Positions 1,419 to 63,127 are shown, counted from the first letter of the whole stretch. The stretch: 63,127 nt of DNA, filler included, from Asterionella formosa (GCA_002256025.1; 13 parts of 13 records of this genome joined end to end with filler, not necessarily neighbours in it), one strand, 5' to 3'. Program-made: numbers and translations. The notes: generated by a model from the sequence alone, not told the origin.

Positions 1419-1702
1419 TACCGGTACCAGGTATGTGTTGTTGTTCCTATAATTTATATAAATGACCCTGTGAACGATTCTTTGCTTAACCGGCATATCA
1501 TTGTTGATCAGGGCCAGGAATTCATACAAGAAAATGTATTGTGTATAGTTTTGGTTTTAGCATCATATAATGTATTAGTAGATATAAATATTATCTGTGC
1601 ATAAGAATACTTATATTCATACCTCCTCAGCAGCATTCTGAGCAAGCAAGGACGGTACCGGTATGTAGACTACCAGGTACCTGCCCGGTACGACTACTGT
1701 AG
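1419..1702. repeat. Cluster of TACC(W)GGTA/GGTACC palindromic micro-repeats in a divergent intergenic region
   Basis: TACCGGTACCAGGTA at 1419; dense run 1654-1702. Confidence 0.8.
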
Positions 1703-1876
1703 TACCCGGTACCTGGTACCGGCAATCATGTGGGCTGCAGGTCATCCACACATCATGTCTAGAGACCATGGGAAACAGCCATCATGGATTCTGATACTAC
1801 CGTGCGTATTACAATACACTGGAACAATAAAAAGTATTCACGTTCATGTTCCCACACCCCACCTCACCCCCATCCA

Positions 1877-3007
1877 ATGCCATGCCTCATCTTGACAGGA
1901 CACCCGTGTGTCGGGAAGACTACAGTCGCTCATTTACTAGCCGAACGAGCCAAGGCTCATCCATCCAAGCTAATTCAAGATGTGGTAATTGTCAATGAGG
2001 AATCTGTGTGTGTCGACAAGTCCAAACGTGAGTGCTACATCACGTCGCATGCTGAAAAATCCACCCGATCATCCATCAAGGCCCAAGTGGATCGATATAT
2101 GAACCATTCGCATCGACTGGTCATTTGTGATTCGTTAAATTACATCAAAGGATATCGATACGAGTTGCATTGTTTGAGCAAGGCTGCCACACAACGGCAT
2201 GGAGTTATATGGGTATTGAATGCGCCGGCCGTGGCGCAAGTATGGAACGAAGAGCGGTCTGTCAACGACAAGAAAGAATATTACTATACCGATCAGCAAA
2301 TGCAGGAGTTGATTCAGCGGTATGAACCTCCGGATGCACGGAATCGATGGGATAAGCCCTTGTATCGCATTGATTTGACTCCGACTTCTGGAGCGAATAC
2401 GACCAATCAGGCTGCGGAAGCTGCCCTCAGTCAATCAGTCTACAATATGCACGATTTGAGCAAGGTTATTACTACGGACGCTGCTGTAGCCCCAACGAAA
2501 CATGGTGTCGTCAAGAAGAAGAGTAGTGCGTTTCGACCCAAGAAAAAGGCTTCTGAAGGCTACGAACCTGACTCAACAGCCACAGTCTCAGCAGATCCTG
2601 ACATTTCTCATTGTCAGAAACCACAAGAGACTATCAAATCATTGGAAGAACAATTGGATGATATTTTGGACTCATTTCTGGGCACAGATGTGGCTCAACT
2701 CAAGGAGGGAATCAGTACTCGGCAAAATCTTAATGCTGAATCCAATGTTTTGCACGAGGTAGATTCACTCACACAGCAAGTTTGCAATGCAATTGAACGT
2801 TCACAAAGTCAAGGGCTGATGCGAATATCAATATCAGATTATGGTGATCCAGCAATTGTAATGGAAAGCACCCGAAAGTTACCGCTATCCGAGTTGAAGC
2901 GAATGAGGAAGCAATACATTCGATGGGTCAATACTCATCCACCAGATGATTCGACACAGCGGGGAATCGTGATATCTTTTTCCCAGTATGTAGAAGCACA
3001 GCTGTAG
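1877..3007 (+). CDS. KTI12: KTI12 / Elongator-associated P-loop protein
   Basis: MPCLILTGHPCVGKTT (Walker A), DSLNYIKGYRYELHC and RYEPPDARNRWDKPL are KTI12 motifs; start placed at ATG 1877 rather than the ORF-track start 1784. Confidence 0.92.
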   Translation: MPCLILTGHPCVGKTTVAHLLAERAKAHPSKLIQDVVIVNEESVCVDKSKRECYITSHAEKSTRSSIKAQVDRYMNHSHRLVICDSLNYIKGYRYELHCLSKAATQRHGVIWVLNAPAVAQVWNEERSVNDKKEYYYTDQQMQELIQRYEPPDARNRWDKPLYRIDLTPTSGANTTNQAAEAALSQSVYNMHDLSKVITTDAAVAPTKHGVVKKKSSAFRPKKKASEGYEPDSTATVSADPDISHCQKPQETIKSLEEQLDDILDSFLGTDVAQLKEGISTRQNLNAESNVLHEVDSLTQQVCNAIERSQSQGLMRISISDYGDPAIVMESTRKLPLSELKRMRKQYIRWVNTHPPDDSTQRGIVISFSQYVEAQL

Positions 3008-3848
3008 ATATAGATTTTCTAACGAGTGCACACTTGCCCTGCATTTATCATGGCACCATGTATATGCTAGATATAAAACTTCCAGCATTACACTCAAACT
3101 GCACAGTAAGATGTAGATCTTCAGGACTCTTGAGGGAAGCATTGCCATCATGTGTTCCATAAAATGAATTGGCTGGTTTCAGCATCAATAATCATATTTT
3201 GGTGTCCATCATTGGCACACTCCAAAAACTCTTGCACAAGCGCACTTCCGACCCCTTGGTGATGATATTGTGGGACACAGAGCGAAGCCAATTCTGAATA
3301 CTTATCATCCTAAGGACGGCTCTGGAAAAACTCAAGAATGCCATGATTCATTGCTTCTTAACAACACTGTAGACTATATAGCAGTATTATGATCAACTTT
3401 ATGTCTTTTGTAGACTGGTGGTATGTGAAAGATATTTTACCGGTATTATTGCATGCAATTCAAGAAAGCGATATTTTTGTGAATTTCATAGTATGCATGT
3501 CTATTAATAATATCATCATTCGATGCAGCCTCTGGGTGCTAAAAGTAGTGTTACCATCAGGTAGTACAAAATAACAAGCTTCATGGTGAATATGTATAGA
3601 GATAATTCTTCCTAGTTTTTGCTGATAATCATATAGATGCTTTGGAGTAGTAGATTTATAAAAGGGGGTGACCACAGCAAAGAAATGAGCTGGAGTACCA
3701 ACTATTTGCTTTCTAGTTCCAGATTAACCATAATAAACCAATAGGAATCTGGTAAACCTAATTCTAGCTCCTGGCATAGTCGTCGTTTCGTTTACAGTAC
3801 ATTAGAGTTTGGTGAACACCAATAAACTCAAATACGCAGAGAAGCTGT

Positions 3849-4858
3849 CTAGTTCCCAGCCTCTGATCTTATTCTTACATTTGCATGAAGCAGAGAAATT
3901 TCATCATTCGATGGTGCATAATGATAGCGTCGAAAGGATTTATGACATGGGATAAAAGTGTCCCCATCCCAAGTCCCCTCAGGGTAAAATCCCTTGTGCA
4001 AAGCCAAACATACGGACCGAATTTCCGCATTACCTGCCAACCTGTGCAAAACTTTCTGGTCTCGACTATCAACTTGGTCACCAAAGGACCAAAAGAGGTG
4101 TTTTAACCAACTGGAGTGAGTCACAACAGCCATTTCTTTTTCCGGACGGGTCGCGAGCCACTTCATCAAATTAACTCCACGTTGGGTAAGAATGTCGGAA
4201 GGCTCCCGATTTTCGTTCCAGTTCATGTCGTCTTCTGTGCAATAGCTACTTTATGGAAAGGACGGTGAGACGGGACTAGTACAAACCTTGATATGTAATC
4301 GCACTGCTACCAAACTCCAACCTTTCATCTGGTGAGTACTTACCCAAAGCTTTCAAAATCAATTTGATCATTTGTGTGTTCATAAATAGGTGCAAAGTCT
4401 GCAATAATTTCTGTTTTGGATCTACGCTTGTCGCAGGTGAAAAATCCAGAGCGTTCCCGACAAAGATCATGCACTACGAAAGGAATTCCTTTCCCCGCAA
4501 ACATAATATGTGCGGTCTGCAATGTACGCGAGAAGGGACTTACAACAATCAATTGCGGGTGTACGTCATGTAACAATGTGGTCCTAGCCTCCACACATTG
4601 TTGAATCCCATTGTCGGTCAATCTGGCGTCAATATATTTCCAAGATCCTTCTGTTGAAAATGTCACGGGAGTATCATCGCCATGGACACGGTTGGCCGCA
4701 TTGTGTGTTCCTTCCGCATGACGAATAAAATGAATGGTCTTGGTTCGTTTGGCCAAAAAGAGTGAGAAGCCATCGTCAGGCTGAAACAAATAGGCGTCGG
4801 TCTTTTCGCCAATGTTGTCCAAGATGCGACCATTGTTCTTGACCTCTTTATCAATCAT
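3849..4858 (-). CDS. Histidine phosphatase / phosphoglycerate-mutase-like protein, 2 exons (intron 4246-4343)
   Basis: IHFIRHAEGTHN (RHx motif), VSPFSRTLQTA, CDKRR, VVTHSSWL; the GTAAGT...TAG intron joins the two ORFs in frame (FG|YCTEDDMNW). Confidence 0.88.
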
Positions 4859-5076
4859 TGTGATAAATAGATTTTGGAATATTTGTGAAAGGATGAGAGA
4901 AGCAAATGAGGAAAGTTTCTCGCGGATTTGGATTGCAAAACGGCCAGGAGATCAACGTGTTTTGTGAAAGTAAATGTACTAGCAATTGAATCTCGGTCTC
5001 TATGAAATTATTCTGAGATGTCAAGATGAGGCTCTTTCTTGTGAGCGAATCATGACACCGTGCCGGCACTGCTTAC

Positions 5077-5235
5077 AGTACCTGGTACCTGGTACCACTG
5101 GAGTACCAGTACGCAATTAACAAGACGGTACCTGGTACGGTCCTGGTACCAGGTACCAGGTACCTGTATGCTTGTTTACCAGGAGGTATGAGGTATGAGC
5201 TACGGAGTACCTGGTACCAGGGTACCATACCGGCA
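5077..5235. repeat. Dense GGTACC(A/T) micro-repeat array in a divergent intergenic region
   Basis: gtacctggtacctggtacc...cctggtaccaggtaccaggtacc...gtacctggtaccagggtacc. Confidence 0.88.
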
Positions 5236-5464
5236 ACCTGAATACCTGCTGGTGAGGAGCAGACAACACAACAGCACCCCCAAGCAGAAATTTAAAACAA
5301 AACTTCCAAAATGACACCAGCTGAAAACGTCGACGTGTACCATGATGATCAGAATATTTCTCACTCCTTCCTCACCTTTTTAGGCTGCCTATTGATCTTA
5401 ATGATTGTTGGGCCTACGCTTTGCGGTAGACGACAATTTGACAAAGAGAAAGACGCTTAGCGCG

Positions 5465-6379
5465 ATGGCTACCCAGCTCGACTACACCAGTTCCTACCCA
5501 TCATGGCACAATGCTGTAGCCGGTGCAATTTCTGGAGCTGGTGCTCGATTGGTGGTTGCCCCCCTGGATCTGATTCGGATAAGAATGCAGCTTCAGACAG
5601 ATGGAACTAGAAGTATGTTGGATCATATCAAAGAGGTTCTACATATGGAAGGTGGATTACAAAGTCTCTTTCGAGGAAACCTGTCGGCCACTTATCTCTG
5701 GGTCGCCTACTCAGCTGTTCAGTTTGGAGTCTACGCGCAATTGTCCGAAACTTTCCAAAATAGTGACTTTATTCCTGAAGCGGGAGTGGCCTTTTGTGCT
5801 GGAGCTGGAGGAGGAGTTTGTGCGACGCTTGTGACATATCCCCTTGACATGTGTCGAACCACATTTGCTGCACGAGGGTTGAGTGCCACAACTGAGTCGA
5901 CGACTGGTCGACCACCCAGGACGATTGGGGAATTCACAGTCAGCCTCTATCGTAAGAAAGGGATACTCGGTTTCCTTGCTGGGTCTCGGCCGGCTATACT
6001 CGGCATCATTCCATACATGGGACTTAACTTTGGAGTGTACGACTTACTTATGAAGTATCAAACAAATGATGCCGCTGTGTTCAACTCAGGATTAGCGGGA
6101 GCAATTTCTGGAAGTTTGAGTAAGCTTGTCGTTTATCCTCTGGATACAGTCAAGAAACGTCTCCAGGCGCAGGCATTCTTTCAAGGGCGAGGGCAATACA
6201 AGGGTATGTGGGACTGTTTTCACACGATGGTGAGGACTGAAGGTCCAAAATCGCTTTACAAAGGTTTGGTGCCGTCGGTCTTGAAGAATGCTGTGGCCAC
6301 AAGTCTGTCATTCGCATTTTTCACATGGTCCAAGGAACTTCTAGAGCGAATTCATAGACAAAATAAAGGGAACTCGTGA
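5465..6379 (+). CDS. TPC1: Mitochondrial carrier, thiamine-pyrophosphate carrier-like (SLC25A19/TPC1)
   Basis: Three PxD/ExxK/R repeats (PLDLIRIR, PLDMCRT, PLDTVKKR); LFRGNLSATYLWVAYSAVQFGVY resembles the TPC subfamily; first ATG at 5465. Family is certain, subfamily is inferred. Confidence 0.75.
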   Translation: MATQLDYTSSYPSWHNAVAGAISGAGARLVVAPLDLIRIRMQLQTDGTRSMLDHIKEVLHMEGGLQSLFRGNLSATYLWVAYSAVQFGVYAQLSETFQNSDFIPEAGVAFCAGAGGGVCATLVTYPLDMCRTTFAARGLSATTESTTGRPPRTIGEFTVSLYRKKGILGFLAGSRPAILGIIPYMGLNFGVYDLLMKYQTNDAAVFNSGLAGAISGSLSKLVVYPLDTVKKRLQAQAFFQGRGQYKGMWDCFHTMVRTEGPKSLYKGLVPSVLKNAVATSLSFAFFTWSKELLERIHRQNKGNS

Positions 6380-6587
6380 TGTCGAAAACAACACAGTTAC
6401 ATCTCCATTCCAGTTTGCATCATACAGATGCCAACAATAAAACGAATCTTTCAAAGAACTGCAGGAGAAATGTATACAATCGACGAGGTCGTTGCCAGAT
6501 CAATTAGCTAAAGTGCAATTATATCGAATCATTTCTTTTCAATGAAGAAAGCGTGCTCAAAACAAACTACCTAGAATTCACTTAAAA

Positions 6588-7963
6588 TCAATAAACCTGG
6601 ATGTTCCAGCCAAACTTGTCTTCTTCATCACCACTTTGAATCGCTCGCACTCGGTCATATAGACGTCGCGTTGTTGGTCCAACTTCTTTGCTTGCTCCAA
6701 ATTCATACTTGACTTCTTCGCCCTGGTCATTATGCATTGTTATACTGCCCACAGGAGTCACAACCACGGCAGTGCCAACGGCCAAGACTTCGTCAAAAGT
6801 GGTCAGCTCCTCCACCGGTATATCTCGAGCTTCGACAGTCAATCCTTCATCCTTTGCCAGTTGCATTAAGGATTTGTTGGTGATACTAGGAAGCACAGAT
6901 GACGAACTTGGCGTCACATACTTTTTGTGCTTATTGTCGATTCCCACAAAGTTGGAGGTACTGAATTCTTCCACGTACGACTGTGTCTTGGAATCCAAAT
7001 ACAGTCCGATAGGATATCCCTTTTTCTTACTCATCATGTTCGGCAACATATCGGCCGCATAATTTCCAGCCACCTTGACATTGCCAACCCCCCGGGGTGC
7101 GGCTCGGTCGTAGTCTTGAATTAACAAGCCAGCCACGGGGGAGGCCAATCCTCCCTTATAGTAATCCCCGACGGGAATAACCATAACTAAGAAAGTGTAT
7201 TCGTCGGATGGTGCCAATCCAATGCGAGGGCCAGATCCAAACAAGAGTGGGCGAACGTACAGTGCTCCGCCAGTTCCATAGGGTGGAACGTATTCGATAT
7301 TGTCGCGGACGGCTTCGTTGACAGCCTTCAAAAATAAATCGTGGGGTGGATATTGCATCATAGTACGCTCGCAACTTGCTTGCATTCTAGAAAGTGATCG
7401 TAGTACAAAGATGTGAGCGAGTTCGCTTCCAGACGCACGGATCACCGAACACGTCTGGCAGTGAGAATGCTGTGCACGTACCTCTTGGCGTTTTCGTCGG
7501 CACGAAAGAGATTGACGGTTCCATCTTCGTGTGCAAATGCTTTGAGTCCTTCAAAGCAAGCTTGACCATAATGGAGAGCCGTAGCTCCAATGTGTAACTT
7601 GATTGTGTCTTCCTAACGTGAGAAAACGTGGAGGTAGTAACATGGAATTGAGTTCAATCACAGGCATAGGCAATAAATAATGTAAGAAAGAGCTCGTCAC
7701 ATAGTACGTACATGCACAAGTTCCATTTCCCCCCATTCCCCATTTTTGAACACAACGCGGACGTGGCTCTTGGTAGGACGGAATTCAAATCCAAGCTCCT
7801 CCCAAGCGACATCCAATTTGGCAGTTCCCGGAGTGCCGAGAGCTCGTGTTTCTGTGCTGGCGGTCATGTCGCGAGACGAAACAGTGCGTCGGCTCTGAAT
7901 TGTGAAGGAACATGCCTTGTGATGAAACGCCGCAATGGCTATGACAATGGTGGATATTTTCAT
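6588..7963 (-). CDS. BCAT: Branched-chain amino acid aminotransferase, likely plastid-targeted, 3 exons (introns 7613-7711 and 7387-7481)
   Basis: Spliced translation gives [39 protein letters not shown] (PLP lysine), [26 protein letters not shown]; both introns are GT..AG; signal peptide ends ACS-F (ASAFAP-like). Confidence 0.92.
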
Positions 7964-8076
7964 GGTTGCTTGATTGGGAAGTGGCGGTTGCTTATAATAG
8001 ACAGTGCGATCGACGGAGAAAACAAACAAACAAAAAGTTACTTTTAAATACCTGGAAAGTCGGAGCCATCAAACAT

Positions 8077-8800
8077 TACCGGTACTTAGGTTTAGTGTCA
8101 GAACGTACGATTGACAGGCCAGATGTGAAATTACGTGAGCACAAGGTCGTCAAACATATGTACGTACTGTACATTTTCGTTGGGTTGATCGGAACACAAA
8201 CCACGTACCTGGTAGGTACCTCGGTAGTAAATGTTTATGAGTACCGGTACAACATGATGTAACGACATGCAGACTACATACTGGTACCAGGTACCTGTTA
8301 CCAGCACGTGGTCCAATACCGGTACGCCAGCACAAGCGTCTGGCAGAGTACCAGTACCCTGGTACCTGATACCATGTACCAGGGGGAGTTTCTGTGCTAC
8401 GGTGTACCTGGTAGCCAGGTGGTCCGAAGGATCGTCTGGGATATGGCATACCGGTACCAGTAGGGGCAGATCCTGCCCATGTTACGTTTCAAAAAGATGT
8501 CAAGTTAAAACTTACTTATTTGTTGTTTGCAGATGTCATTAATCATACTACATACAGCAAAATAAAAAAATACCTGGTATCAGTCGTACTGGTAGCATAT
8601 TTACCGTAGTGCTTCATGACTGACAATATGCATGTACTAGTAGTAGTGCATACCTGGTAGTGCTGCCAAACCTCATGACTTGTGTTGAGATGGTTCATGA
8701 TTGGACTCAATTGGACTACTGGTATGTACCACTACCACCAGGTACCTACCAGTGGTGCGAATCATACAGTGATGATACCAGTGGAGCTAGTACTGGAAGC
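8077..8800. repeat. Extended TACCGGTA / TACCWGGTA / TACTGGTA micro-repeat field upstream of BCAT
   Basis: TACCGGTA at 8077, 8242, 8317 and 8449, plus many ggtacc/cctggta units. Confidence 0.85.
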
Positions 8801-9765
8801 TAGTAGTAGATATAAAACAACCTAAAAATAAATGGATGAGATTTAATAAAATATTAGTACTTACAATCCAGGTAGAAGAGACAAAGGACTTCTTATACTT
8901 GCTACCTGTGTGATATTATTGGGTTTGCATACATCATATAGATTTTAAGATTCATTACCTTATGAACTACTAAACTGAGTAAAAAATGAAGAAAATATCA
9001 TCATGTTTTCTTTCAATCACCAGTCCTGAGTATGGGGAACTGAATGCTGGTAGTCCAGTAAGTCTAGCTTAATTGCTTGCATTGCCTCCCAACTGCCCGT
9101 CCTCATTGAGAAGACTGGTGGGTGTTGTTTTAAAATGTGGGGAGTATATAGGTATGTACTGGCACATCGAGAGAAGAAGATGTCATCACTAAGTGAAATT
9201 GAGAACACTGGACAAAACGTTCACAAGAAAGACTTTTCTCGAGGTCAAGGGAAATGTGAACAAGACCAAAATTATTATTGAATAGTATTAATATGGAAGG
9301 ATTGAATATACAGAGGAAGGTCATGAACTGAGCATCAGCTCTTGACCAATGGTTAGCTATCAAAGCAGAATTGGCAAGGTTGCTTGCTTAGCAAGGATGT
9401 AATCTGCCCATCGGCCTCATACATACCGTACACTACGAATCATGGATGGTCTTTAAAATACAAAATTACTTTTCCTATACGACTATATATTGAATACCGA
9501 TATTAATACTCTAAAGAAAAACAGGGAGGAACCAGCGTACGTACGTATAAATAAGCAGCAGGTTGCGGTCACAGCACACAAACATCAAAATTAGCTGATT
9601 ACCAGGTAACGAGGGTAGCCTAAAAATTATCGGAGTGATGGTCGTTGGCACTTTGTAGTGGTTGCTTGCATGGGGTGGCTTCAAGTACCGGTAATCATTA
9701 TCCACTCCGCCATTGACTATCAACAAATTCTATTCAATCAAAGAACTGAATAAGTGCGATAAGCC

Positions 9766-11456
9766 ATGACAACATCCCATCTGCGTTCTAACAAATTCGT
9801 CCTTCTCGCGGCTTCAGTTGCGCTGCTGAGCCATCAGGTGGCCACTGCCTTTGCTTCGCCTTCCTTGTCCATCCGCTCCCATGTCCTCACTAGCCCATCA
9901 CCCTTGATATCCGATCTCAGCAACAAGCGCATCGATAGCTTGCGCATGGCCATGATTCCTCGAGGAGGTGACATTGCATCCTGTGTTGCGGCCAAACTGA
10001 CCGCTGTCACCAACACGCCTTCCAATCTGTTTAACACAGCCCTGCTTACACTGGCCCTATCCACCGCTGTCTTCAAGGTGATACAGAAATCTCAGCCAAA
10101 GGACACTTCCATCGTCATAAAGGAAAAGCCAGCTACCGTCAAGTCACTCCAATTTCGCTTCCTAGCTGTGTTTTGGCTGCTCCGATGCGCCGATTGGTTG
10201 CAGGGCCCATATTTCTATGAAGTCTATGCCTCAAAAGTATTCAATGGTGCACAAGCATCCTTGGGACTTGTTTCGAAGCTCTTCTTGACTGGATTTGCAT
10301 CAACTGCCTTGTTCGGACCCTTGGTTGGACGAGCGTCAGATGCATATGGTCGCAAAAAGGGAACTCTTGCGTTTGCACTAATTTACGCGGTGGGAGCATT
10401 GAGTACCAAGTCTCCCCTGTTGACGGTGTTAATGTTGGGCCGTGTATTTTCAGGTATTGGAACGTCGCTTCTATTTAGCGCTCCAGAATCATGGTTGGTG
10501 GGAGAGTCGCAAAAGAATGGAGATGATCCAGATGGATCCTATCTGGGAGAAACGTTTGGATTAGTGAGTTTGATCACTGCATATACCTCAGTCTCCGTTG
10601 TTTATGAGCTTTCGCCACTGACTGTCATATCTTACCTCTCTAATTATCTCAGGCATATGCTGGTGATGCCATTGTTGCCATTCTGGCCGGTCAGTTCGCT
10701 TCCATCGCTGCTGCTAGCCGTGGTCCTACTGGACCCTTTGAGTTGTCAACAGGATTTTTAGCCATTGGAGCCGTGTTGGCTGCCTTCTTGTGGAAAGAAA
10801 ATACTGCAGGAAACTCAGGAGGTTCATCCAAACCGACGATTATCGAAGCTGTCAATGTCGTTAGGGCAGATCCGAAAATTATGTTGGTCGGTGCGTCGCA
10901 ATCATTGTTCGAGGCAGCCATGTACATTTTCGTATTGCAGTGGCCTCCTGCCATTAGTGGAGCGGTTACCAAATACTTTGGGTCTGGAGCAGCAACTCCG
11001 TATGGAACAGTGTTTTCATGCTTCATGGCTTCCTGTCTCTTTGGGTCTACCCTATTTGGACAGTTGGGCAAAATGGGAGTGCCAACAGAAAAGTCAACTT
11101 CAAACATGCTAACAGTAGCGACACTTGCAATGGGAGGGGCAACCATTGCGGCGTATTCAGCAGCAACGCCTCTTTGGACTTTGATTGCTGGATTTTTTGC
11201 CTTTGAAGCATGCGTTGGAATGTACTTTCCATCAATCGGTACTCTGAGAAGTAAATATGTGCCTGATTCGCACCGTTCCGTTATCATGAACTTATTTGGT
11301 ATTCCATTGAATGTCTTGGTGGTCAGTGTCTTCCTCTCTATCAAGCGTCTTGGTGTAACCGGTGCATTGAGTATTTCTACAGGAGCCTTGGGAGTTGCGG
11401 CTGCTTGTATGTTTGCCTTGCGTCGGTTGAATGCCAAGGAGGTTGCAACCGCATAG
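9766..11456 (+). CDS. MFS molybdate-anion-transporter family protein (MOT2/MFSD5-like), 2 exons (intron 10564-10652)
   Basis: ADWLQGPYFYEVY, GRVFSGIGTSLLFSAPESWLV, QSLFEAAMYIFVLQW, FEACVGMYFPSIGTLRSKYVPDSHRSVIMNLFGIPLN; GTGAG..CAG intron; signal peptide followed by ATA-FASP. Confidence 0.85.
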
Positions 11457-11567
11457 TACTTTTAAGAGGAAAATACAGCGATTTTAGTTTACAAGCATTA
11501 AAGTACCATGCTTGGAACTCTTCATCGACTTGATCGGAAATTAACTTGCTATGTAGATACAATAAAG

Positions 11568-50989: not shown

Positions 50990-51091
50990 NNNNNNNNNNN
51001 NNNNNNNNNNNNNNNNNNNNNNNNNNNNNNNNNTTAATTAATTAANNNNNNNNNNNNNNNNNNNNNNNNNNNNNNNNNNNNNNNNNNNNGC

Positions 51092-52023
51092 AGCGAAGCG
51101 CCGTCGCGTCGCAAGAAGAAGCTCAAGAGTCTGCCCAAGCGACCGCTCTCTGCGTATAACTTTTTCTTCCAGACGGAGCGCTCCCTGTTGATGCAGGACA
51201 GGGCCATTGTGCCGTCGTTGAAAGTTGGATTCGAAGACTTGGGAAGGATCGTTGGCAAGAAGTGGAGAGAACTGTCAGAAGCGGAGCGAGAAACATACAA
51301 TAGAAAAGCGATTGGCGACAGTGAGCGATACAGGAAGGAAATGGAAGACTACAAGAAACGAGAAACGGACAAGCGGCGCGGCGTAAAGGTCAGCGAGCCA
51401 GCGAGTCCAGCATTTTCACTGCCACCGACCCCCTATCGCTTCCCGACTTTTGAGCATCCGCATGGAATGCAGTCACCACCGATGGTTCAGTCGCAGCAAT
51501 ACTTTGGAAGGGCTCCCTACACGACGACTACCTCCGGAGCCCCCTTTTCTCCTTTGCCTCTGACGCATTCATCCTCAGACCACCCCAAGCACCACGAATA
51601 CTCGGATCGGTACAAACGATTCTGTCCCCCTCCAGGAGGGCCAGGGATCTGTAAGGGACCTATTCCTTCTTCCGCCTTTCCACTTAGACCAAACCAAGAG
51701 GTGTTAATTCAAGATCAAAATGGACAGTTGCAAAAATATAGAGTCCAGTATGCTGTCATGTCCATGACGGAGGCAGCTGCCAAATCGTACATGGAAGAAA
51801 TGAACATGGCACTTCATCACACCCCTTCGTCACGGTACGTTTATCATACATTATTATCCTTGTGGTTCATTCGTGTGACGCTTGCTGTCCTGTACCTTGT
51901 GTGTGCTGGGGCTTACACATCTCTCGTTTTTCATACAATAGTGCCCCTATGCCCCCTATGTATTATAACAGCAGTCATGCACAGAATCACAGGGATAATG
52001 AAGCATCACCATATCCACTGTAG
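51092..52023 (+). CDS. HMG-box protein, 5'-partial (intron 51835-51941)
   Basis: LPKRPLSAYNFFFQTER..GFEDLGRIVGKKWRELS..DSERYRKEMEDY; the GTACGT..TAG intron gives a stop at 52021-52023. Confidence 0.88.
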
Positions 52024-52607
52024 CAAATCATATGTGTAGGTATTACATGCATATGATCTGATTGCAATATCGGTATACAGACACTTGCTCTTGCAAGTAG
52101 TAATTATTCATGTTTTGTCCGTATTCACACATTGTAAAAATGCAAAGGCATTTTATGAACATATACTAATGGAATTATAGTATGGTATTACCTCTGGTTG
52201 AAAATAATTGTGTCAAATTGCCAGCACCACTAGTGTCTTAACTGTTTGCATATGAAGGATTTCATAGCCAACATACCACCTTTCTACATGAGGGTTGGAT
52301 TACTTGAATAAATGTGATGGTTATTAGTTACATAGACATGAACATATACTCTAGGGAAGATCACTGTATTGTTGGCAGGGAGTGAGTTTCATTTTTTCAA
52401 CATAAATATTTTATTGGCACACATCACCTGTATCTTCCTTGCCCTCCTTGTCACCCTTGCTATCTCTTTTGTCTTGATTCATGTCTCACAACATCACACT
52501 GGTTGATNNNNNNNNNNNNNNNNNNNNNNNNNNNNNNNNNNNNNNNNNNNNTTAATTAATTAANNNNNNNNNNNNNNNNNNNNNNNNNNNNNNNNNNNNN
52601 NNNNNNN

Positions 52608-53335
52608 CAGGTATGACGAAGAGCAAGATCGACCCTATGTTATTTATGCACCGGAACAAGGATGGACAAATTGATGGTCTACTTGTTAATTACGTGGATG
52701 ACGGTATTGTATGTGGGACTCCAAGTGCAGTGGAGTATATGAAAAATGTTATCAAGGAAGATTTCAATATTACCGAGCAGGGTATTCTACAGAAACACCT
52801 AGGAGTGGAATATGTTTGGAAAGAGGACAAGTATGGTGAATACGTGAAGGAACAGATTCATACGAGATTGTCCGAACCAGTTCAGAGTGGAACGATGTTA
52901 CAGCCTCTTGAGCGTGGCAATGGGGAGGATGTCAAGAATATTAGCCCGAGTCACAAGGATTGTGGACTCGATTGTAATCGAACGAGTCGAATATTGCATT
53001 GCCACGTCAATCAGCTGTCTAACGAGATCAGAGATTGAAGATTTCTATGGAAATGTTAAGTGGAAACTCGAAGAGAGTCTTAGAATGACTTTGCAGGAAG
53101 CAAAGATGCGTGGAAAGGAAACATTTAGTTTAGCTTATAATTTAATTTGAGATTTAGATTATCAACCGAGGAAACAGTGTGTTAATTGACAGGAAGATCA
53201 ATTAGTCTATCTAGCAGGAAGGCTAGAAGCAGAGACAAGAGAGAAAGTGAGTGGTACTAGGTAGTACTACGATCACGTAAGAGTCTACGTGAAGAGAGAC
53301 CCAACCCGCGGGAAGGAGTACGGACCATTTCAACA
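52608..53335 (+). mobile_element. Ty1/copia 3' end with internal deletion and a 406-bp LTR (52930-53335)
   Basis: RT motif LLVNYVDDG, KHLGV; PPT GGGGAGGA then TGTCAAG...TTCAACA; near-identical to 55900-56627. Confidence 0.9.
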
Positions 53336-53348
53336 TTACCGGTAGTTA

Positions 53349-54032
53349 GAGCATCGCCACCGCATCGACCAAATACCAATCCAATTGAAGTTGCGGGTCA
53401 TTACACGTCATGATGCGTTGTGTTGGTCGAAAAAGCAAAAAAATTTTAGCCACCGCATCGACCAAGACCAAATATGCTTTGGTCTTGATCGAGGATGACC
53501 CCCTTATCGACCAAATATCAGGTAGTTGGTCGATTAGACTCCGACCGTAGCCAAATAAAAGGAGCATTTCTATTGGTTTAGATTGTGGCTCGCGCCGGCA
53601 AGCTAACGTTTATAGTTCAATGAGTGCATACATAATCACAGTACATTCACTATTGTCTCTTCATGTAGAACTCTATAGGCCAATGTGATCCTGGTGTGGT
53701 GTATACATCATAGCTATTGAGTCAACATCATAAAACAACAATCATCATTGTCAGGATGGGTTCCGGTGTCACGTGGGAGAAGGAAGAGGACGAAGCACTC
53801 TCTCGGGCCTGGGTAGCTGCAAGTGAAGACGCAATCACTGGGACTGGTCAGAAAGCAAGCAAGTTTTGGAGCAGGGTATTCGAGATTTATGTTGAGCTTA
53901 GTATCCCAGTTGGGAAGGATCGCACCTCAACAGCGTGCACTGCTCGATGGGGAACAATCAATCAAGATGTGACAAAGTTTTGCGGCCTCTATTCACAGGT
54001 TACGTCCATTGCTAAGTCAGGATGGACAGACG
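53349..54032 (+). mobile_element. PIF/Harbinger transposon 5' end with a Myb/SANT-like ORF (ATG 53757, truncated)
   Basis: TTA|GAGCATC terminus typical of PIF/Tourist; WEKEEDEALSRAWVAASED..GTGQK..FWSRV..RWGTINQDVTKFCG..KSGW is the Harbinger accessory-protein pattern. Confidence 0.75.
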
Positions 54033-54132
54033 NNNNNNNNNNNNNNNNNNNNNNNNNNNNNNNNNNNNNNNNNNNNTTAATTAATTAANNNNNNNNNNNN
54101 NNNNNNNNNNNNNNNNNNNNNNNNNNNNNNNN

Positions 54133-54890
54133 TATGGTTACTTGTCACCAGATAGTGAATACAAGCAATAGGAGTTGGAAACTCTTTTTGCTCCACAACA
54201 ACCATAGCTACGGGCTTGAACTTCTTCTCCAAGTTCTCCCTCTCTTCAATGGTAATGACAAAGTTGCCATGAAGCTTCTTCTGGAGCTGATTTGCGTATA
54301 GAGCTTGGTTGGTAACAACTGAATTCCAATCGTTACCAAAAGATTTTGACAAGAAAGTCATAATCTCATTGATCTCCAAAGGGATTTTAGAGGTGGCGAA
54401 GGTGTCAAGTGGAATTTGGGTGATCCTAGCTTTCCACTTGTACTGCCTATCATCAGCATTAGGGTCACGTACATTAATGCGACCAATGTACAATATTCCT
54501 AGAGCCTCAAGACTTTTGCTCACATGAGTGAAAAAGCAAGAAAATAGAGAAGTGGATAATCCACATGAGTCCTGTATCCCTCGCGGATCAGACTCATAGA
54601 CTCTGGACTGATGGGGACCAACCAATAGCGTTGAGGGAGAAAGGACTCATATTCTCATACGCGTTGATCAATAGAAGATAGAGTTTCTTCATGGACAATT
54701 CAGGATCTCTCTGGAAATCCTTGAACATGCCAATCTCAAGTAACTTGTCCATACTGTCGCAAGTACTCTTAAACTGGTCAGTAGTGAAAGGAACACTGAA
54801 ATTCGTCTTGATGTGGTAATGAGGATACATAGTATCATCATCACCATACTGAGCCCTGTGATCCTCGAAAGGACAGAAACCATCGCACAT
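54133..54890 (-). pseudogene. Unknown protein in two overlapping frames (frameshift near 54600), 3'-partial
   Basis: ORFs 54594-55007 and 54133-54625 overlap by ~30 nt and have protein-like composition; no family recognised. Confidence 0.35.
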
Positions 54891-55899
54891 CTTGGCTGGT
54901 CTGTTCTTGAGCGAGAAAGAAGTCTCGAAGGGAGAAAGGAAAGAGAGAAGAGGAGAGTAACGCAATTGTTGCGAAAAAGTGCAATTATTAGAGAAATATA
55001 GAGTCACGTGAGAATGGTTGGCAGTTTTTCTGTTCCAACAAACAGGCAGGAAGCCAGTAGTAGCTAGTTGGAATGTTTTTGTGTCCGAATCCTAGCACCT
55101 GCATCTAGTACCGACTAGATAAATAGTACAAGACGCACGAATACTCGGATGTACTATATACAATACCTGGTCCTTGTTTGTGCGTATAATTTCCCTGAAT
55201 TGCTGCTAGTAGCTACTAGTAGCAAGTACTTTTACTGTCGCGCCATTCAGTAACTGTTGAATTTTGAAGGTGATGATGCTTGATTATTATTAGTGTAGCA
55301 GAAAACCGGTAGACCGGTAGACCAGCAACAATGGCCATTTGCAAAGGGAAAATGTCCACTTTTGCGAATAAATGCGTGATCACCAATCAGTGATTGTTCG
55401 AGATCCAATTCCTATAAATCTCTGGCAAGCTATTTCGGATATCATGTCAAAACATATTCAGGAGCTGTCTCAGGCTGAGGCTTCCTCTGCATCCGACAGT
55501 GAAAGCGACAATGGAGTCTCTATTCCTGGAGCAGAGAACAGCGATTTCTNNNNNNNNNNNNNNNNNNNNNNNNNNNNNNNNNNNNNNNNNNNNTTAATTA
55601 ATTAANNNNNNNNNNNNNNNNNNNNNNNNNNNNNNNNNNNNNNNNNNNNTAAATGTTTAAATACTGTCTATATCCATTTAGACTTTCCTCAGACTAGATC
55701 AAGCTTCCGGACACTTGTTGACATCAACAGCCTAACAGACGTTTTCTGACATGTTGCTCTACTGCTATGATGGACTATGACAGTATGTATAATTTGTGTG
55801 TTCCAGGTACCTCGTACCATGTACCAAGGCAGGTCCGGTAATTAGCTTAATCTTTTCTTTATATTAGTTAAAAAAGTGTTTTACCTGACCTTCCAGGTA

Positions 55900-57065
55900 T
55901 GTTGAAATAGTCTGTACTCCTTCCCGCAGGTTGGGTCTCTCTTCACGTAGACTCTTACGTGATCGTAGTACTACCTAGTACCACTTACTTTCTCTCTTGT
56001 CTCTGCTTCTAGCCTTCCTGCTAGATAGAATAATTGACCTTACTGTCAATTAACACACTGTTTCCTCGGTTGATAATCTAAATCTCAAATTAAATTATAA
56101 GCTAAACTAAATGTTTCCTTTCCATGCATCTTTGCTTCCTGCAAAGTTATTCTAAGACTCTCTTCGAGTTTCCACTTAACATTTCCATAGAAATCTTCAA
56201 TCTCTGATCTCGTTAGACAGCTGATTGACGTGGCAATGCAATATTCGACTCGTTCGATTACAATCGAGTCCACAATCCTTGTGACTTGGGCTAATATTCT
56301 TGACATCCTCCCCATTGCCACGCTCAAGAGGCTGTAACATCGTTCCACTCTGACCTGGTTCGGACAATCTCGCATGAATCTGTTCCTTCACGTATTCACC
56401 ATACTTGTCCTCTTTCCAAGCATATTCCACTCCTAGGTGTTTCTGTAGAATACCCTGCTCGGTAATATTGAAATCTTCCTTGATAACATTTTTCATATAC
56501 TCCACTGCACTTGGAGTCCCACATACAATACCGTCATCCACGTAATTAACAAGTAGACCATCAATTTGTCCATCCTTGTTCCGGTGCATAAATAACATTG
56601 GGTCAATCTTGCTCTTCGTCATACCTGGTTTATTGGTGACACATTTCGCAAACGTCCTGGACCAGCATCGTGGAGCTTGTACTATCCCGTACATAGCCTT
56701 CACAAGCTTGCAAACATGTGTATCGGAATCGACTCCAATCAAACCTTGAGGGGGCTCAATATAAATGTCCTCATCGACGATGGCATTTAGAAATGCTGCT
56801 TCCACATCAATAGCCTCCGCTCGCCAACCGTTGTACATCGTCACTGCGAGTACCGTTTTGATTGTCGCATCGCTTGCAACTGGAGCAAATGTCTCAGTAA
56901 AATCGACACCTGGGATTTGCTCATATCCCTTCACGACCAATCTTGCCTTGTAAATGGTCTTCCCGGTTAACACATCTTCTTTAATTCGAAACACCCATCT
57001 CGTTTTTAGTGTTCGCTTCTTAACAGTATCACGTTTGACAACTTTCCACACTCCTCTCGACTGGA
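55900..57065 (-). mobile_element. Ty1/copia RT with the same internal deletion and a 406-bp LTR (55900-56305)
   Basis: WVFRIK..YKARLVVKGYEQIPGVDFTETFAPV, DVEAAFLN, KAMYGIVQAPRCW, YVDD; LTR nearly identical to 52930-53335. Confidence 0.92.
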
Positions 57066-57861
57066 NNNNNNNNNNNNNNNNNNNNNNNNNNNNNNNNNNN
57101 NNNNNNNNNTTAATTAATTAANNNNNNNNNNNNNNNNNNNNNNNNNNNNNNNNNNNNNNNNNNNNATACATACATACATACATACATAGCTAATGAGAGT
57201 ACAGCGAGTACCTGATACCAGGTAAGTACTCCAGTACCAAGTAGCTACCAGGACAGTAAATTACATGGAAACTCTGGAACCTTGGTGTGGTTGAAACCAC
57301 ATAACACACATACCGGTATACCTGCAGGATGCATGATCGAAATAATGTTTGCTTGTGTAACCCCACCGGCATTTTTCTGAAGATACAGGTTGTACTGGTA
57401 CGTATTCATACATACAGCTATACATATATATCATGAACATCAATAGGTGTCGTATGTACGACCTTGCTTTCAACAACAACAAGAAGTAACCCTAATAATT
57501 GGGTGTGCATTCAGTTGTTTAAAGTTCACGTGCGCACCTCAATTTTAAATGTATGGCACAGAGAGGAGGAGGAGGATCTGTTGTTCGGACTATAAATTTT
57601 TAAAAATGCTACCCGTACGTACTGGTAGTATGTGTTGTTACCTCAAGAATCTTGTGGTTTTACTCTATGCATAAATATAATCATCAGCACATCCTTTTAT
57701 TGATAAAACGCTCAGTATTTTATCAAATCTTCAAACTTGTTCATACGACGACGTTCAATCCAACATTCATTGTACCGGTATCAATCATATATATTTATAT
57801 ATATATATCATAGTGCAGTAACAAAAGAGAGAGATAGAGAGAGAGAGAGAGCGATTGAATA

Positions 57862-60097: not shown

Positions 60098-60518
60098 NNN
60101 NNNNNNNNNNNNNNNNNNNNNNNNNNNNNNNNNNNNNNNNNTTAATTAATTAANNNNNNNNNNNNNNNNNNNNNNNNNNNNNNNNNNNNNNNNNNNNTGC
60201 TATTGACTAGACTTACGGTACCTGATACCCTGGTACGAACGCAATAGCAATGAAACGATGGACCAATAGTATCGTATCGTAACGTGACGATGATTCGATG
60301 CATTTACTACGTAGTATGGGTGGCGGAGAGAAAATCTACTTACCCCGGTACTAGGTATCGTCTTTTAGATGCTACATAAAATACCGTCTGTCATAATAAA
60401 ATATCGCAGCATCCGCCATAATTTTTTACAGGTTCCATTGCAGTCCAGTCGGATATCATCCGAGGGAGTTGCGGTAGAAGACGGTTTTTACTATTAGGAA
60501 AACATAGCTAAATTTTGC

Positions 60519-61612
60519 CGAAGTAACTTCGACACAATTACCGTCTCGTCCGTTTCGTCTTTCTCCATATGTAGTCTGTGTAGTACTAGCTTTGTGGGTA
60601 CTTAGCTGCAATATATAAAATCGACCCATCAAATACTAGAATAGCGAGCCAGAAATACTAAGTAGAAGTAGCATAAATGGTTTTTGAATTCGGTGCTAAG
60701 TAAACGTGTCCCTTTTCCAAAATCCGGGTTCAAAATGCGGATCCAATCTCCGGGTTCTGCGGCAGTCGAGTTGCGCTTTGCCGTGGGAGGGACGTAGGGT
60801 GGGTGATTTTAGACTATAAATTGCGAAAGGCTTGGCGATGCTTTAGACTGCTTCTCTGAATCGTTATTCAAAGAATTGTGTGCTTCACCCTTGCACTAAT
60901 TCACTTGTTTAACCTCGCGTGGTTGCTCTTGTCTTCCCTTGTCTTAGCTGCCGACTCTTGGTTGTTCGATTCAACTCTAAAAGCTAGAACTTAATAGTCG
61001 CGTTGTCGCTATATTGAATTCTCAGCTTCGACTCCTTCGATTCGCGTCGCGTGGTTTGTATCATCCGGTGCTCGCCTGATATACTAACTCCATCGCGTCC
61101 GTCCTTGTCCGTAATATCAACGAAGTAACTTCGACACAATTACCGTCTCGTCCGTTTCGTCTTTCTCCATATGTAGTCTGTGTAGTACTAGCTTTGTGGG
61201 TACTTAGCTGCAATATATAAAATCGACCCATCAAATACTAGAATAGCGAGCCAGAAATACTAAGTAGAAGTAGCATAAATGGTTTTTGAATTCGGTGCTA
61301 AGTAAACGTGTCCCTTTTCCAAAATCCGGGTTCAAAATGCGGATCCAATCTCCGGGTTCTGCGGCAGTCGAGTTGCGCTTTGCCGATCCACTTTCTAGTC
61401 ACGACGAATTATGTTAGATGAGCCGTGGCATGCGCGTCTCGCCCTGCCATTGTCGATCGAGATGTGAATGCTATTGTATTTGCCGGCGGATGGAAGAATG
61501 TCGTTGTCGTGATCATCTTTTGGCTAACTGACTTCGTAAATTCCGCCACTTGCTTACGGATGTAAATTAGAAATGCGTCCGATTTCCAGCGACCAATTAG
61601 CATGACCATGTA
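60519..61612 (-). mobile_element. 3' end of a tyrosine-recombinase retrotransposon with split direct repeats (Ngaro/PAT-type)
   Basis: YR C-terminus GRWKSDAFLIYIR (61409-61609), followed by 265-bp direct repeats 61121-61385 and 60519-60783 separated by 337 bp. Confidence 0.82.
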
Positions 61613-61712
61613 NNNNNNNNNNNNNNNNNNNNNNNNNNNNNNNNNNNNNNNNNNNNTTAATTAATTAANNNNNNNNNNNNNNNNNNNNNNNNNNNNNNNN
61701 NNNNNNNNNNNN

Positions 61713-63127
61713 TGGTTGCTGAGGATACCGGTATGTGATATGCATCAATCCATGTCACAAATCATATTATAGTGATGTACATATCAACGCATCTGTATAC
61801 TTAGATCCTATCCACTGTATGATACTATCATATTAACTGAAAAAAGTAACAGCACCAAGAAATGATCGAACTTGTTTAAGATTGGTAGGGGAAGACATAT
61901 TAATCAATGCTCGGACTTTTTTAGACCAAGGTTTCAGTCCATTAGGAGTTGACCAATATCCTAACCAATCTGTCTCTTGGATGGCCCATTCACACTTAGA
62001 TGGATTAATTGTGAAACCCTTTGCCTGTAAACGATGTAAAATAGGGTCCAATAAATGAAAGTGATCCGAAAAATTCATTGAAAAACAACCCACATCATCA
62101 ATATAAATTTCCACATCATCTAAATCACTAAGAGTCTGTTCCACATTTTCTTGTGCAATATCAGATGATTGTTTCACCCCCATAAGGAGATGTAAATATT
62201 TATATAAACCAAATGGAGTTAAAATAACGCACAAGTTTTGACTCTCCACATCCAATGCGAAAGTATAATATTGCATGGAAACATCCAATTTGGTGAAAAA
62301 TACATATCCAGTATATTAACTGTTGACTTTAACTTTATAAATTAAACGACAAATATATATATTAATTAACATCCTTTATGATTGCTTGATTTATATTCTA
62401 TGATGTCTTGGTAACACTTGCGTACATATTTAATCGTATTTTATTGTCATTGTATTATTTTAGCATAATCATATTTTGATCAAAATTATATCATAAATAT
62501 TTTATAAAATCATCATAGTTATATGATCAATGTATAATAACTTTGTGATGTACTTTTTTCAATATTATCAATGTAGTAACCCTAACATGATATCACAGTA
62601 TCATACATGATTTGATTGGGAAGCAACTGTATTCTGCATCGTGCTACAGGGTATATTATTATATCACGATATTTAGTAGCAAAGTCACTCCGCCTGTAAT
62701 GTACTAAAGTCGACAGTGCACATACACACACGCTAATCAGGTTTGAGGCAATGGACAGTGGTTCGAACGAGCGAATGATGATACCACGGGTACCAATTTT
62801 TCCAACGAAAGAAGCAACTTGTCTCTCTATTGATGAGGATGACATGGACATCGACTTTTCCAGGAGCAAACAACAAACAACAATGAAGAGACCCACTTAT
62901 CGCTCTATTGATGTTAACAAAGATGCGGACAAGTTCAACAGTGAATACAAGAACAACATACTATTGAAAACAAGTTGACAGTGTGTGCACGCAAACGCCA
63001 AGCAAGTTTGAGGCAACGGACAATTCCAACAAGCAAATGATGATACAGATATCAAATTCTTCCTACGAGCAAACAACAATGAAAAGAGCCACTTGCTTTC
63101 GCTCTCTTGATGGTATCAAAGATGCGG
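61713..63127 (-). mobile_element. Inverted paralogue of inner TIR element segment ~30610-31585, interrupted by a gypsy RT fragment
   Basis: 61713-61839 and 62313-63127 align as reverse complement with 31584-31458 and 31467-~30615. Confidence 0.85.
61840..62312 (-). pseudogene. 473-bp internal fragment of Ty3/gypsy reverse transcriptase
   Basis: GYVFFTKLDVSMQYY..TPFGLYKY..IYIDDVG..GFTINPSKCEW..WLGYW..VRSFLGAVTF; flanked by ATATTAACTG on both sides. Confidence 0.88.

What the first reader, a model, noticed from the sequence alone, without database searches (positions are those of the whole stretch)
1419..61733. Highly iterated TA-CC(W)GG-TA palindrome family in a eukaryote
Seen: the octamer palindrome TACCGGTA occurs at least 24 times by eye (1419, 1656, 8077, 8242, 8317, 8449, 9686, 17799, 18165, 23465, 24433, 31564, 31630, 36854, 36883, 39464, 43005, 44524, 46261, 48719, 53337, 57311, 57773, 61726). 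About 1 is expected by chance in 62 kb at ~40% GC. Relatives (TACCAGGTA, TACCTGGTA, TACCAGTA, TACTGGTA, TACCCGGTA, TACCAGGGTA) chain through shared TA into arrays such as TACCAGGTACCTGGTA. I noticed none of the octamer in intact host exons. Established: cyanobacterial HIP1 is the precedent for a genome-wide iterated 8-bp palindrome. Inference: a dedicated process writes or maintains this motif.
Basis: partly seen in the sequence, partly recalled or inferred. Interest (0 to 1): 0.72.

Follow-up and report, generated by a model that had tools for sequence, protein, structure and literature searches.

The report
Mass transposon scars in a diatom
The short palindromes that litter this diatom's non-coding DNA arise as six- or seven-letter insertions at a plain TA and match the ends of cut-and-paste transposons living in the same genome, so they are most likely jump-out scars, about 55,000 of them, still differing between strains and re-used as landing sites by other transposons.

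Summary
Observation confirmed: TACCGGTA occurs 26 times in the window, 28,528 times genome-wide (control 1,718); TACCWGGTA 26,886 (control 902). It is not HIP1-like. The words are born as insertions at a TA: 9 of 28 paralogous site clusters have a clean empty TA, and two window octamers (8077, 8449) are missing as 6-bp indels in 4 of 4 wild samples at 0.4% SNP divergence. I found candidate makers for both words: pogo elements ending TA|CCGT (intact DDE_1 transposase, near-identical copies, weak flank bias like the octamer) and elements ending TA|CCAG (GG|TA flank in 13 of 15 ends, like the 9-mer). Best reading: Tc1/mariner-type excision footprints, some 100-250 per surviving element, decaying mainly by CpG transition. 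Arrays grow by re-insertion and are landing pads for two further families (a CTCCCTC mariner; a MITE duplicating CWG). No site showed element in one copy and scar in another, so excision itself is inferred. Two earlier notes of this scan reached the footprint reading on other DNA of this genome. The same octamer is published as a putative promoter motif in oomycetes, where the footprint idea was dismissed untested.

The parts
1419..61733 (.). 26 copies of TACCGGTA (TA + CCGG + TA), starts: 1419, 1656, 3438, 8077, 8242, 8317, 8449, 9686, 17799, 18165, 21513, 23465, 24433, 31564, 31630, 36854, 36883, 39464, 43005, 44524, 46261, 48719, 53337, 57311, 57773, 61726
1425..57224 (.). 25 copies of TACCWGGTA (TA + CCWGG + TA); 23 lie in the intergenic clusters of contig 1-23175
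8077..8084 (.). Octamer that is a polymorphic 6-bp insertion: plain TA in wild samples
   Evidence: table 4: 6 letters left out in 4 of 4 runs
8449..8462 (.). Octamer chained to TACCAGTA; the octamer unit is a polymorphic 6-bp insertion
   Evidence: table 4: 6 letters left out at 8449 in 4 of 4 runs
31630..31637 (.). Octamer inserted at a TA run inside a repeat; all paralogous copies lack it
   Evidence: 4 clean empty sites and 2 shorter by 8 bp, of 6 paralogs
23465..23472 (.). Octamer with a clean empty TA in a paralogous copy (L133)
   Evidence: 1 of 1 paralog
46261..46268 (.). Shared old scar in a repeat family; paralogs show CpG decay (TACCAGTA, TACTGGTA) and later insertions at its TA (7 bp in L049, 12 bp in L033)
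31564..31571 (.). Shared old scar; one paralog (L061) has the CpG transition
1419..1718 (.). Cluster of scars between two divergent genes (DUF6824 protein, KTI12)
5079..5224 (.). 9-mer arrays between two divergent genes (His-phosphatase family, mitochondrial carrier)
8206..8724 (.). Cluster of 8-, 9- and 10-mer scars upstream of the class IV aminotransferase gene
16630..16735 (.). Mixed-orientation 9-mer array and one single 9-mer between divergent genes
17799..18302 (.). Cluster including a three-unit chain at 18151-18172, upstream of a sulfotransferase gene
24499..25263 (-). Degenerate remnant of the CCAG-ended TIR element (terminus TA|CCAGT at 24499); 75-80% identical to the full copy L049:5082-7546
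45003..46400 (+). Repeat family starting with GC and a variable 2-nt flank; carries the scar at 46261; candidate source of NN-GC-NN insertions
23176..23275 (.). One of 12 artificial contig linkers (44 N, TTAATTAATTAA, 44 N); the window is a concatenation of contigs. Not part of the phenomenon

Best explanation
The words are excision footprints of TA-targeting cut-and-paste transposons. Step 1 (shown): elements insert at TA and duplicate it. Step 2 (inferred): on excision a few terminal bases of the element stay on each flank as 3' overhangs and end-joining seals them, leaving TA + core + TA. Pogo elements ending CCGT give CCGG (two bases of each end filled in, or CCG/CCG overhangs paired through CG). 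Elements ending CCAG give CCWGG (CCAG/CCAG overhangs paired C:G, A:A mismatch, G:C, resolved to A or T), with CCAG and CCAGGG as minor forms. Step 3 (shown as sequence pattern): each scar has two TAs and GGTA/TACC half-sites; the CCAG family prefers GG|TA|CC, so it re-inserts into scars and builds mixed-orientation arrays, which a CTCCCTC-ended mariner and a CWG-duplicating MITE also use as targets. Step 4 (partly shown): scars are purged from exons and decay elsewhere, fastest by CpG transition. Because every hop leaves a heritable scar while elements do not multiply, about 55,000 exact scars can stand beside a few hundred elements.
For: Birth by insertion: 9 of 28 paralogous octamer clusters have a clean +6 empty TA, some strongly polarised (L131:983, 18 of 18 paralogs empty; L119:2164, 5 of 5); 5 of 11 9-mer sites with a paralog have a clean +7 empty site, GTAC in 4 and CTAC in 1, and the core is not a copy of the flank; 8077 and 8449 are 6-bp indels in 4 of 4 wild runs; one of six MITE copies carries an extra octamer (L176). 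Makers: 93 DDE_1 matches; full elements TA|CCGT...ACGG|TA (L111, L116, L114), ten copies 99-100% alike, 433-aa DDE_1 frame, single TA at paralogous empty sites, 473 ends genome-wide against 67 control. TA|CCAGT ends: 221 against 0, full copy L049:5082-7546. Target context matches maker: GG before TA in 0 of 19 CCGT ends and 7% of single octamer flanks (background 7%); in 13 of 15 CCAG ends and 45% of single 9-mer flanks. Spectrum: CCAG+GG 24 against CCTG+GG 1. Adjacent 9-mers same orientation 16, opposite 13. All 24 one-off neighbours over-represented, CpG transition most (114 against 19). About 1.5e-4 new scars per generation would hold 28,528 in steady state at an assumed mutation rate of 5e-10. 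Precedent: 0-4-bp footprints of the pogo-superfamily Passer (PMC9976928), 2-4 bp for Tc1/mariner (PMC7913693).
Against: No site was found with the element in one copy and the scar in another among 45 element ends whose flanks were searched in the loci held, so excision is inferred. The CCAG element's protein pieces have no Pfam match, no match to a profile of this genome's pogo proteins, and a relative's model gives only sub-threshold integrase-core hits (E about 1). The CAGT-ended pogo family present here has left no enriched scar (TACATGTA 15 against 15.7), nor clearly has the CTCC mariner. A 5-bp core is longer than the 0-4 bp in the papers read. One dominant scar per family is tidier than the mixed footprints of cell-culture assays. 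In 18 of 28 clusters no clean empty paralog was seen, and the direction of their gapless differences is not established. Direction of the two polymorphic indels rests on four samples without an outgroup.
Confidence: 0.85

Rival explanations
1. Abortive transposition or transposase-linked repair writes element ends into TA sites without a stable insertion (insertion and immediate loss, or capture of end oligonucleotides at breaks). Same makers, different route.
For: Scars outnumber element ends by about 60-120 to one; no element/scar pair at one site; two gains in 20 kb at 0.37% SNP divergence is a high rate.
Against: The steady-state arithmetic needs under 1e-6 scar-leaving hops per element and generation, so no special route is required; cores match ordinary footprints.
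Confidence: 0.06
2. Break repair at TA with fold-back (templated) synthesis or slippage generates and expands the palindromes, without transposon ends.
For: 9-mers sit in palindromic GGTACC context and cluster (66% within 100 bp of another); some arrays are homogeneous, so slippage may extend some.
Against: Octamer insertions occur in unrelated flanks that cannot template CCGG; CCWGG is not in the flanks of the five empty sites; orientation of neighbours is about random, 16 to 13.
Confidence: 0.04
3. The words are selected transcription-factor or chromatin-protein sites in promoters, as proposed for oomycetes.
For: Clusters lie upstream of genes and between divergent genes; TACCGGTA and TACATGTA are reported as over-represented promoter motifs in Phytophthora and Plasmopara.
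Against: Also frequent inside transposon copies; 2 of 10 sites polymorphic within the species; unselective decay pattern. Selection does not explain birth by insertion. Secondary co-option of some scars is not excluded.
Confidence: 0.03
4. HIP1-like system: methylation-directed repair converts near-matches into the palindrome by substitution and selection keeps it.
For: Enrichment (49-fold) and density (one per 2.4 kb) are in the HIP1 range.
Against: Arises by insertion; depleted in coding DNA; commonest variant at the centre, whereas HIP1 variants avoid the centre.
Confidence: 0.02

Closest known systems
Excision footprints of IS630/Tc1/mariner/pogo transposons (Passer, ZB, Sleeping Beauty, Osmar5/Stowaway; Tc1 taCATGta)
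   Same: TA duplicated around a few bases from the element's ends; re-insertion next to an old footprint (PMC9976928, PMC7913693, PMC1925063, PMC3520976; passages). The A-or-T centre from a mismatched overhang pair is as in the Sleeping Beauty scar (recalled).
   Different: In those papers footprints are single-locus or assay products and are called rare; here about 55,000 exact copies form the most over-represented words of the genome, one core per family dominates, and the 9-mer core is 5 bp.
Cyanobacterial HIP1 (GCGATCGC)
   Same: Genome-wide 8-bp palindrome at 15-300-fold enrichment.
   Different: HIP1 is enriched and conserved in coding DNA in all frames, linked to methyltransferases and modelled as substitution-born (PMC5861425, PMC4390886). 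This word is non-coding, insertion-born, clustered and polymorphic.
Oomycete promoter motifs TACATGTA and TACCGGTA (motif-1 and motif-9 of PMC3520976; M93 and M94 of PMC3597505; streme-5 of PMC10031896)
   Same: Identical octamer, abundant, non-coding, palindromic, in another stramenopile lineage; the pair corresponds to the 2+2 scars of CAGT- and CCGT-ended elements.
   Different: Published as candidate transcription-factor sites; PMC3520976 names the Tc1 footprint and sets it aside because of abundance and conservation. I could not test oomycete genomes here.
NuwaI group of PHIS (PIF/Harbinger-related) transposons, CWG target duplication (PMC4482050)
   Same: The roughly 90-bp MITE with termini CAAGTTGCGG has CWG as a direct repeat at both ends in 6 of 6 full copies.
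   Different: Here the target is the centre of another element's scar; no transposase was identified; NuwaI is described mainly from animals.

Membership tests
Tc1/mariner/pogo excision footprint | Arises as an insertion that duplicates a target TA | tested here: met
   9 of 28 octamer clusters and 5 of 11 9-mer sites with clean empty TA; two 6-bp indels in 4 of 4 wild runs
Tc1/mariner/pogo excision footprint | Core equals the terminal bases of a resident TA-flanked TIR element | tested here: met
   CCGT-ended and CCAG-ended elements; CCAG+GG 24 against CCTG+GG 1
Tc1/mariner/pogo excision footprint | Resident element encodes a DDD/E transposase (CCGT families) | tested here: met
   PF03184 DDE_1, E 3e-20, in L116; 93 matches in the genome
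Tc1/mariner/pogo excision footprint | Resident element encodes a DDD/E transposase (CCAG family) | tested here: inconclusive
   No Pfam match; longer relatives show three acidic motifs by eye; integrase cores lead the Foldseek list but at E about 1
Tc1/mariner/pogo excision footprint | Flank bias of scar equals target bias of the element | tested here: met
   GG flank: CCGT ends 0 of 19, octamer 7%; CCAG ends 13 of 15, single 9-mers 45%; background 7%
Tc1/mariner/pogo excision footprint | Same site seen with element and with scar | tested here: inconclusive
   0 cases among 45 element ends, searched only against about 0.87 Mb of loci
Tc1/mariner/pogo excision footprint | Produced by excision in an assay | not testable with these tools
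   needs a bench assay
HIP1-type iterated palindrome | 15-fold or greater enrichment over a trinucleotide background | tested here: met
   49-fold in 503 kb
HIP1-type iterated palindrome | Abundant within coding sequence in all frames | tested here: not met
   0 of 11 in host CDS; six-fold depleted in long stop-free stretches
HIP1-type iterated palindrome | Gained by point substitution; variants avoid the central positions | tested here: not met
   gains are insertions; central CpG transition is the commonest variant
HIP1-type iterated palindrome | Sites more conserved than control palindromes | tested here: inconclusive
   2 of 10 sites absent in conspecific samples at 0.37% SNP divergence points against it; no formal control was run
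HIP1-type iterated palindrome | Cognate DNA methyltransferase; periodic spacing | not tested
   no methylation data; spacing looked at only as nearest-neighbour distance
Microsatellite (slippage) array | Neighbouring units identical and in one orientation | tested here: not met
   same 16, opposite 13
NuwaI / PHIS (for the CAAG MITE only) | CWG target duplication | tested here: met
   direct repeat in 6 of 6 full copies, not tied to internal orientation, 3 to 3; no paralogous empty site seen
NuwaI / PHIS (for the CAAG MITE only) | DDE transposase plus Myb/SANT protein in autonomous copies | not tested
   longer copies (1.4-1.7 kb) were not read
Plant-type mariner / Stowaway-like (for the CTCCCTC element only) | TIR starting CTCCCTC, flanked by TA, mariner-like transposase | tested here: inconclusive
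   TIR and TA met (consensus in PMC1925063); transposase only broken frames with a weak DDE_3 hit, E 0.005; the D-to-D spacing was not checked

The most novel reading that the evidence does not exclude
Transposon excision scars are a dominant, still-running mutational signature of stramenopile non-coding DNA. In this diatom several families each leave one palindromic scar set by self-pairing of their ends; scar-type events make up a quarter or more of polarised small insertions in repeats; the scars form self-growing landing pads shared by three or more transposon families (one of them inserting into the centre of another's scar); and the abundant oomycete 'promoter motifs' TACATGTA and TACCGGTA are the same kind of scar. 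Scar counts would then serve as an odometer of past transposition.
Probability: 0.45. Interest if true: 0.75.

Novelty: new variant of a known kind. Interest (0 to 1): 0.57.

Why it matters
Footprints are usually treated as rare curiosities. Here they appear to be the top over-represented words of a genome, outnumber living elements by two orders of magnitude and still segregate between strains, so they record cumulative cut-and-paste activity that element counts miss. They seed CpG and GTAC sites in promoters, they would mislead motif discovery (the same octamer is in print as a candidate regulatory site in oomycete pathogens), and they reveal an ecology in which one transposon's scar is another's target. 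The claim is directly testable by empty-site alignment in oomycetes and by an excision assay.

Tried and rejected
TTAATTAA excess: contig linker. DDE_3 family search: 0 of 16 candidates. First alignment of one repeat family (window 31715-33485) held no motif. I first took the MITE with ends TACCWGCAAG (857 exact ends against 0) for the maker of the 9-mer; six full copies showed that W is a direct repeat unlinked to orientation, so it duplicates CWG and inserts into the 9-mer. The CTCCCTC mariner as maker of the 9-mer: its ends cannot give CCWGG; kept as a user of the arrays. Search for element-versus-scar at one site: none. No CCGT or convincing CTCC element end lies in the window itself. Atlas search of the CCAG element's C-terminal piece gave only unnamed clusters at 0.90 or less; BLASTP against the pogo transposase, a pogo profile and PDB sequences gave nothing; the fold model was of low confidence (mean pLDDT 61) and VIA-align returned mainly coiled coils, best Z 5.3. 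The other end and target duplication of the GC-starting family were not found. A full-length 3.5-kb CCAG element could not be read, which leaves its transposase open. Paper searches listed no paper on genome-wide footprint accumulation in diatoms; the library lacks most subscription papers and no supplements were read.


Full report
Setting. The window is a concatenation of contigs joined by an artificial linker; 1-23175 is contig C2519 of a 68.4-Mb genome in 15,436 contigs. Host genes are eukaryotic, the nearest Atlas cluster of the photolyase-like protein is mostly Bacillariophyta and the holders are freshwater samples: a freshwater diatom.

All 24 listed octamers are there and two more. Genome-wide there are 28,528 TACCGGTA against 1,718 for the reversed word and 26,886 TACCWGGTA against 902. 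In a 503-kb sample (60 loci plus the window; most of the long contigs were picked from hit lists, mostly taking stretches away from the listed 14-mer hit, and the density, 200 in 503 kb, equals the genome mean) the octamer is 49-fold and the 9-mer 40-fold over a second-order Markov model. None of 11 octamers and 23 9-mers of C2519 lies in my approximate CDS set, 59% of the contig; in the sample, long stop-free stretches hold 97 octamers per Mb against 595 outside and 15 for the control, so exclusion is strong but not complete.

How the words are born. I aligned repeat copies and asked what stands at a motif's place in paralogs. Of 28 homologous octamer clusters, the script marked 10 as having an empty site; I dropped one (L049) as mislabelled, leaving 9 with a clean TA six bases shorter, among them L131:983 (18 of 18 paralogs empty), L119:2164 (5 of 5), window 31630 and 23465. 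The other 18 are shared sites with the same word, one or two substitutions, or other length changes; their direction is not established. Of 11 9-mer sites with a paralog, 5 have a clean site seven bases shorter, GTAC in four and CTAC in one, and the inserted CCWGG is not present in the flanks. Contigs of four public runs from four studies, laid on 1-20000, lack six letters at 8077 and at 8449 in 4 of 4 runs (12 of 69 indel rows were shown). In the deepest run five contigs cover 19.8 kb with 74 other letters (0.37%), and those over 1419, 1656, 9686, 17799 and 18165 have too few gap letters to remove them. So the motif is real in wild DNA, and 2 of 10 octamers differ between conspecific strains as whole insertions. 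All 24 one-off neighbours of the octamer are over-represented, the CpG transition most (114 against 19), and paralogs show that transition at shared sites: decay of an inserted word, not a ratchet towards it.

Makers. An insertion of TA plus a fixed core is what TA-targeting transposons leave. The genome has 93 DDE_1 matches. Two families end TA|CCGT...ACGG|TA (L111, L116, L110; L114); ten copies of the first are 99-100% alike and L116 has a 433-aa DDE_1 frame; paralogous empty sites have a single TA; 473 ends match against 67 control. Two bases of each end give TA-CC-GG-TA. A separate group ends TA|CCAGT at both ends: 221 exact ends against 0, with facing pairs 0.3-3.5 kb apart, a full 2.46-kb copy in L049 and a remnant in the window at 24499-25263. 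Target context links each word to its maker: GG precedes the TA in 0 of 19 CCGT ends and in 7% of single-octamer flanks (background 7%), but in 13 of 15 CCAG ends and 45% of single 9-mer flanks. The 10-mer appears as CCAG+GG 24 times and CCTG+GG once. I infer that overhangs left on the flanks pair at their tips (CCG with CCG through CG; CCAG with CCAG around an A:A mismatch), which would explain one dominant palindromic scar per family and the A-or-T centre; the cleavage offsets were not measured. TACCAGTA has intermediate flank bias (G 45%) and is probably both CpG decay of the octamer and a minor CCAG scar. The CCAG element's transposase is unproven: its pieces and 15 of their 123 relatives have no relevant Pfam match; long relatives show three acidic motifs by eye and a low-confidence model ranks integrase cores first at E about 1.

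Arrays. Neighbouring 9-mers are in the same orientation 16 times and opposite 13 times, which fits repeated insertion rather than slippage; L049 shows a 9-mer unit added at the TA of the old octamer homologous to window 46261. Two more families use the arrays. A CTCCCTC-ended mariner-like element has a 9-mer with at most one mismatch directly outside 25 of 34 ends, against 1.3% of all TAs. A MITE of about 90 bp (857 exact ends against 0) sits in the middle of the 9-mer with CWG repeated on both sides in 6 of 6 full copies, like the NuwaI duplication (PMC4482050, passages); L157 has the doubled-CWG form expected after its imprecise loss.

Numbers. About 200 CCGT and at least 110 CCAG elements stand against 28,528 and 26,886 scars. 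With an assumed mutation rate of 5e-10, about 1.5e-4 new octamers per generation hold the count steady, under 1e-6 per element: no exotic rate is needed, given that mitotic hops are inherited in a unicellular organism (inference).

Against. No site with element in one copy and scar in another was found among 45 ends searched in about 0.87 Mb. The CAGT-ended pogo family has no enriched scar (TACATGTA 15 against 15.7). A 5-bp core exceeds the 0-4 bp reported for Passer and ZB (PMC9976928, PMC7913693; passages).

Known systems. HIP1 shares only the enrichment: it is conserved in coding DNA and modelled as substitution-born with variants away from the centre (PMC5861425, PMC4390886; passages). Footprints with re-insertion at the same TA are known from Stowaway and Emigrant (PMC1925063, PMC1636448; passages). 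The identical octamer and TACATGTA are published as oomycete promoter motifs (PMC3520976, PMC3597505, PMC10031896; passages); PMC3520976 mentions the Tc1 footprint and rejects it because the motif is abundant and conserved. The diatom data remove the abundance argument; conservation in oomycetes was not tested here. Searches (listings and abstract starts) showed no paper on genome-scale footprint accumulation in diatoms; supplements were not read. Two earlier notes of this scan on other pieces of this genome reached the footprint reading; I had stated mine before opening them and tested it independently. Their short texts did not mention the makers, the strain polymorphism or the landing-pad families.

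Verdict. A known mechanism at an unusual scale, with candidate makers identified and a testable reinterpretation of published motifs: new variant of a known kind, confidence in the footprint mechanism 0.85, interest 0.57.

Noticed in passing
repeat copies across L001-L176 and window (e.g. window 28530-28535): Among 591 polarised small insertions, 3-bp (210) and 4-bp (154) events far outnumber 1-bp (90) and 2-bp (26); 80 are NN+C/G+NN and 62 NN+GC+NN with any dinucleotide duplicated; TAGCTA has 16 independent empty sites. A larger scar class, mostly invisible to word counts.
   Followed up: partly
window 45003-46400; L033:513, L078:1465, L084:1505: Repeat family whose copies start sharply with GCAATTCCC after variable dinucleotides; candidate maker of NN-GC-NN. 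Other end and duplication not found.
   Followed up: partly
L035:7035-9456, L122-L140: CTCCCTC-ended mariner-like family with strong preference for 9-mer arrays on both sides (25 of 34 ends), unusually long target bias for this superfamily.
   Followed up: partly
L171-L176: Roughly 90-bp MITE duplicating CWG in the centre of TACCWGGTA; 857 exact ends; longer 1.4-1.7-kb forms not read.
   Followed up: partly
L094-L103, L111, L116: Recently active pogo family, ten copies 99-100% alike with open transposase frames; contigs break inside it; it carries an old scar of its own kind (L116:2713, absent in L110).
   Followed up: partly
L092:297-2628: CAGT-ended pogo family with single-TA empty sites but no enriched TACATGTA scar; unexplained contrast with the CCGT families.
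   Followed up: no
window 23176-61712: Twelve artificial linkers (44 N, TTAATTAATTAA, 44 N) join unrelated contigs; they cause the TTAATTAA excess.
   Followed up: yes
window 52608-53300 and 55950-57065: Two near-identical pieces of an LTR-retrotransposon reverse-transcriptase region on separate small contigs, in opposite orientation; another such frame at 58682-60097.
   Followed up: no
window 21928-21979: A G-rich run of about 50 bases next to a 10-mer scar; similar runs occur in other loci.
   Followed up: no
window 34557-34870: Tandem repeat of about 110-bp units inside a large repeat family.
   Followed up: no
L032 near 500-807: Homogeneous (GCAGGTA)n array, partly masked, holding a CTCCCTC element; slippage may extend some arrays.
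   Followed up: no
window 11568-13388: Photolyase-like gene (weak PF00875 hit; Atlas cluster mostly diatoms).
   Followed up: no
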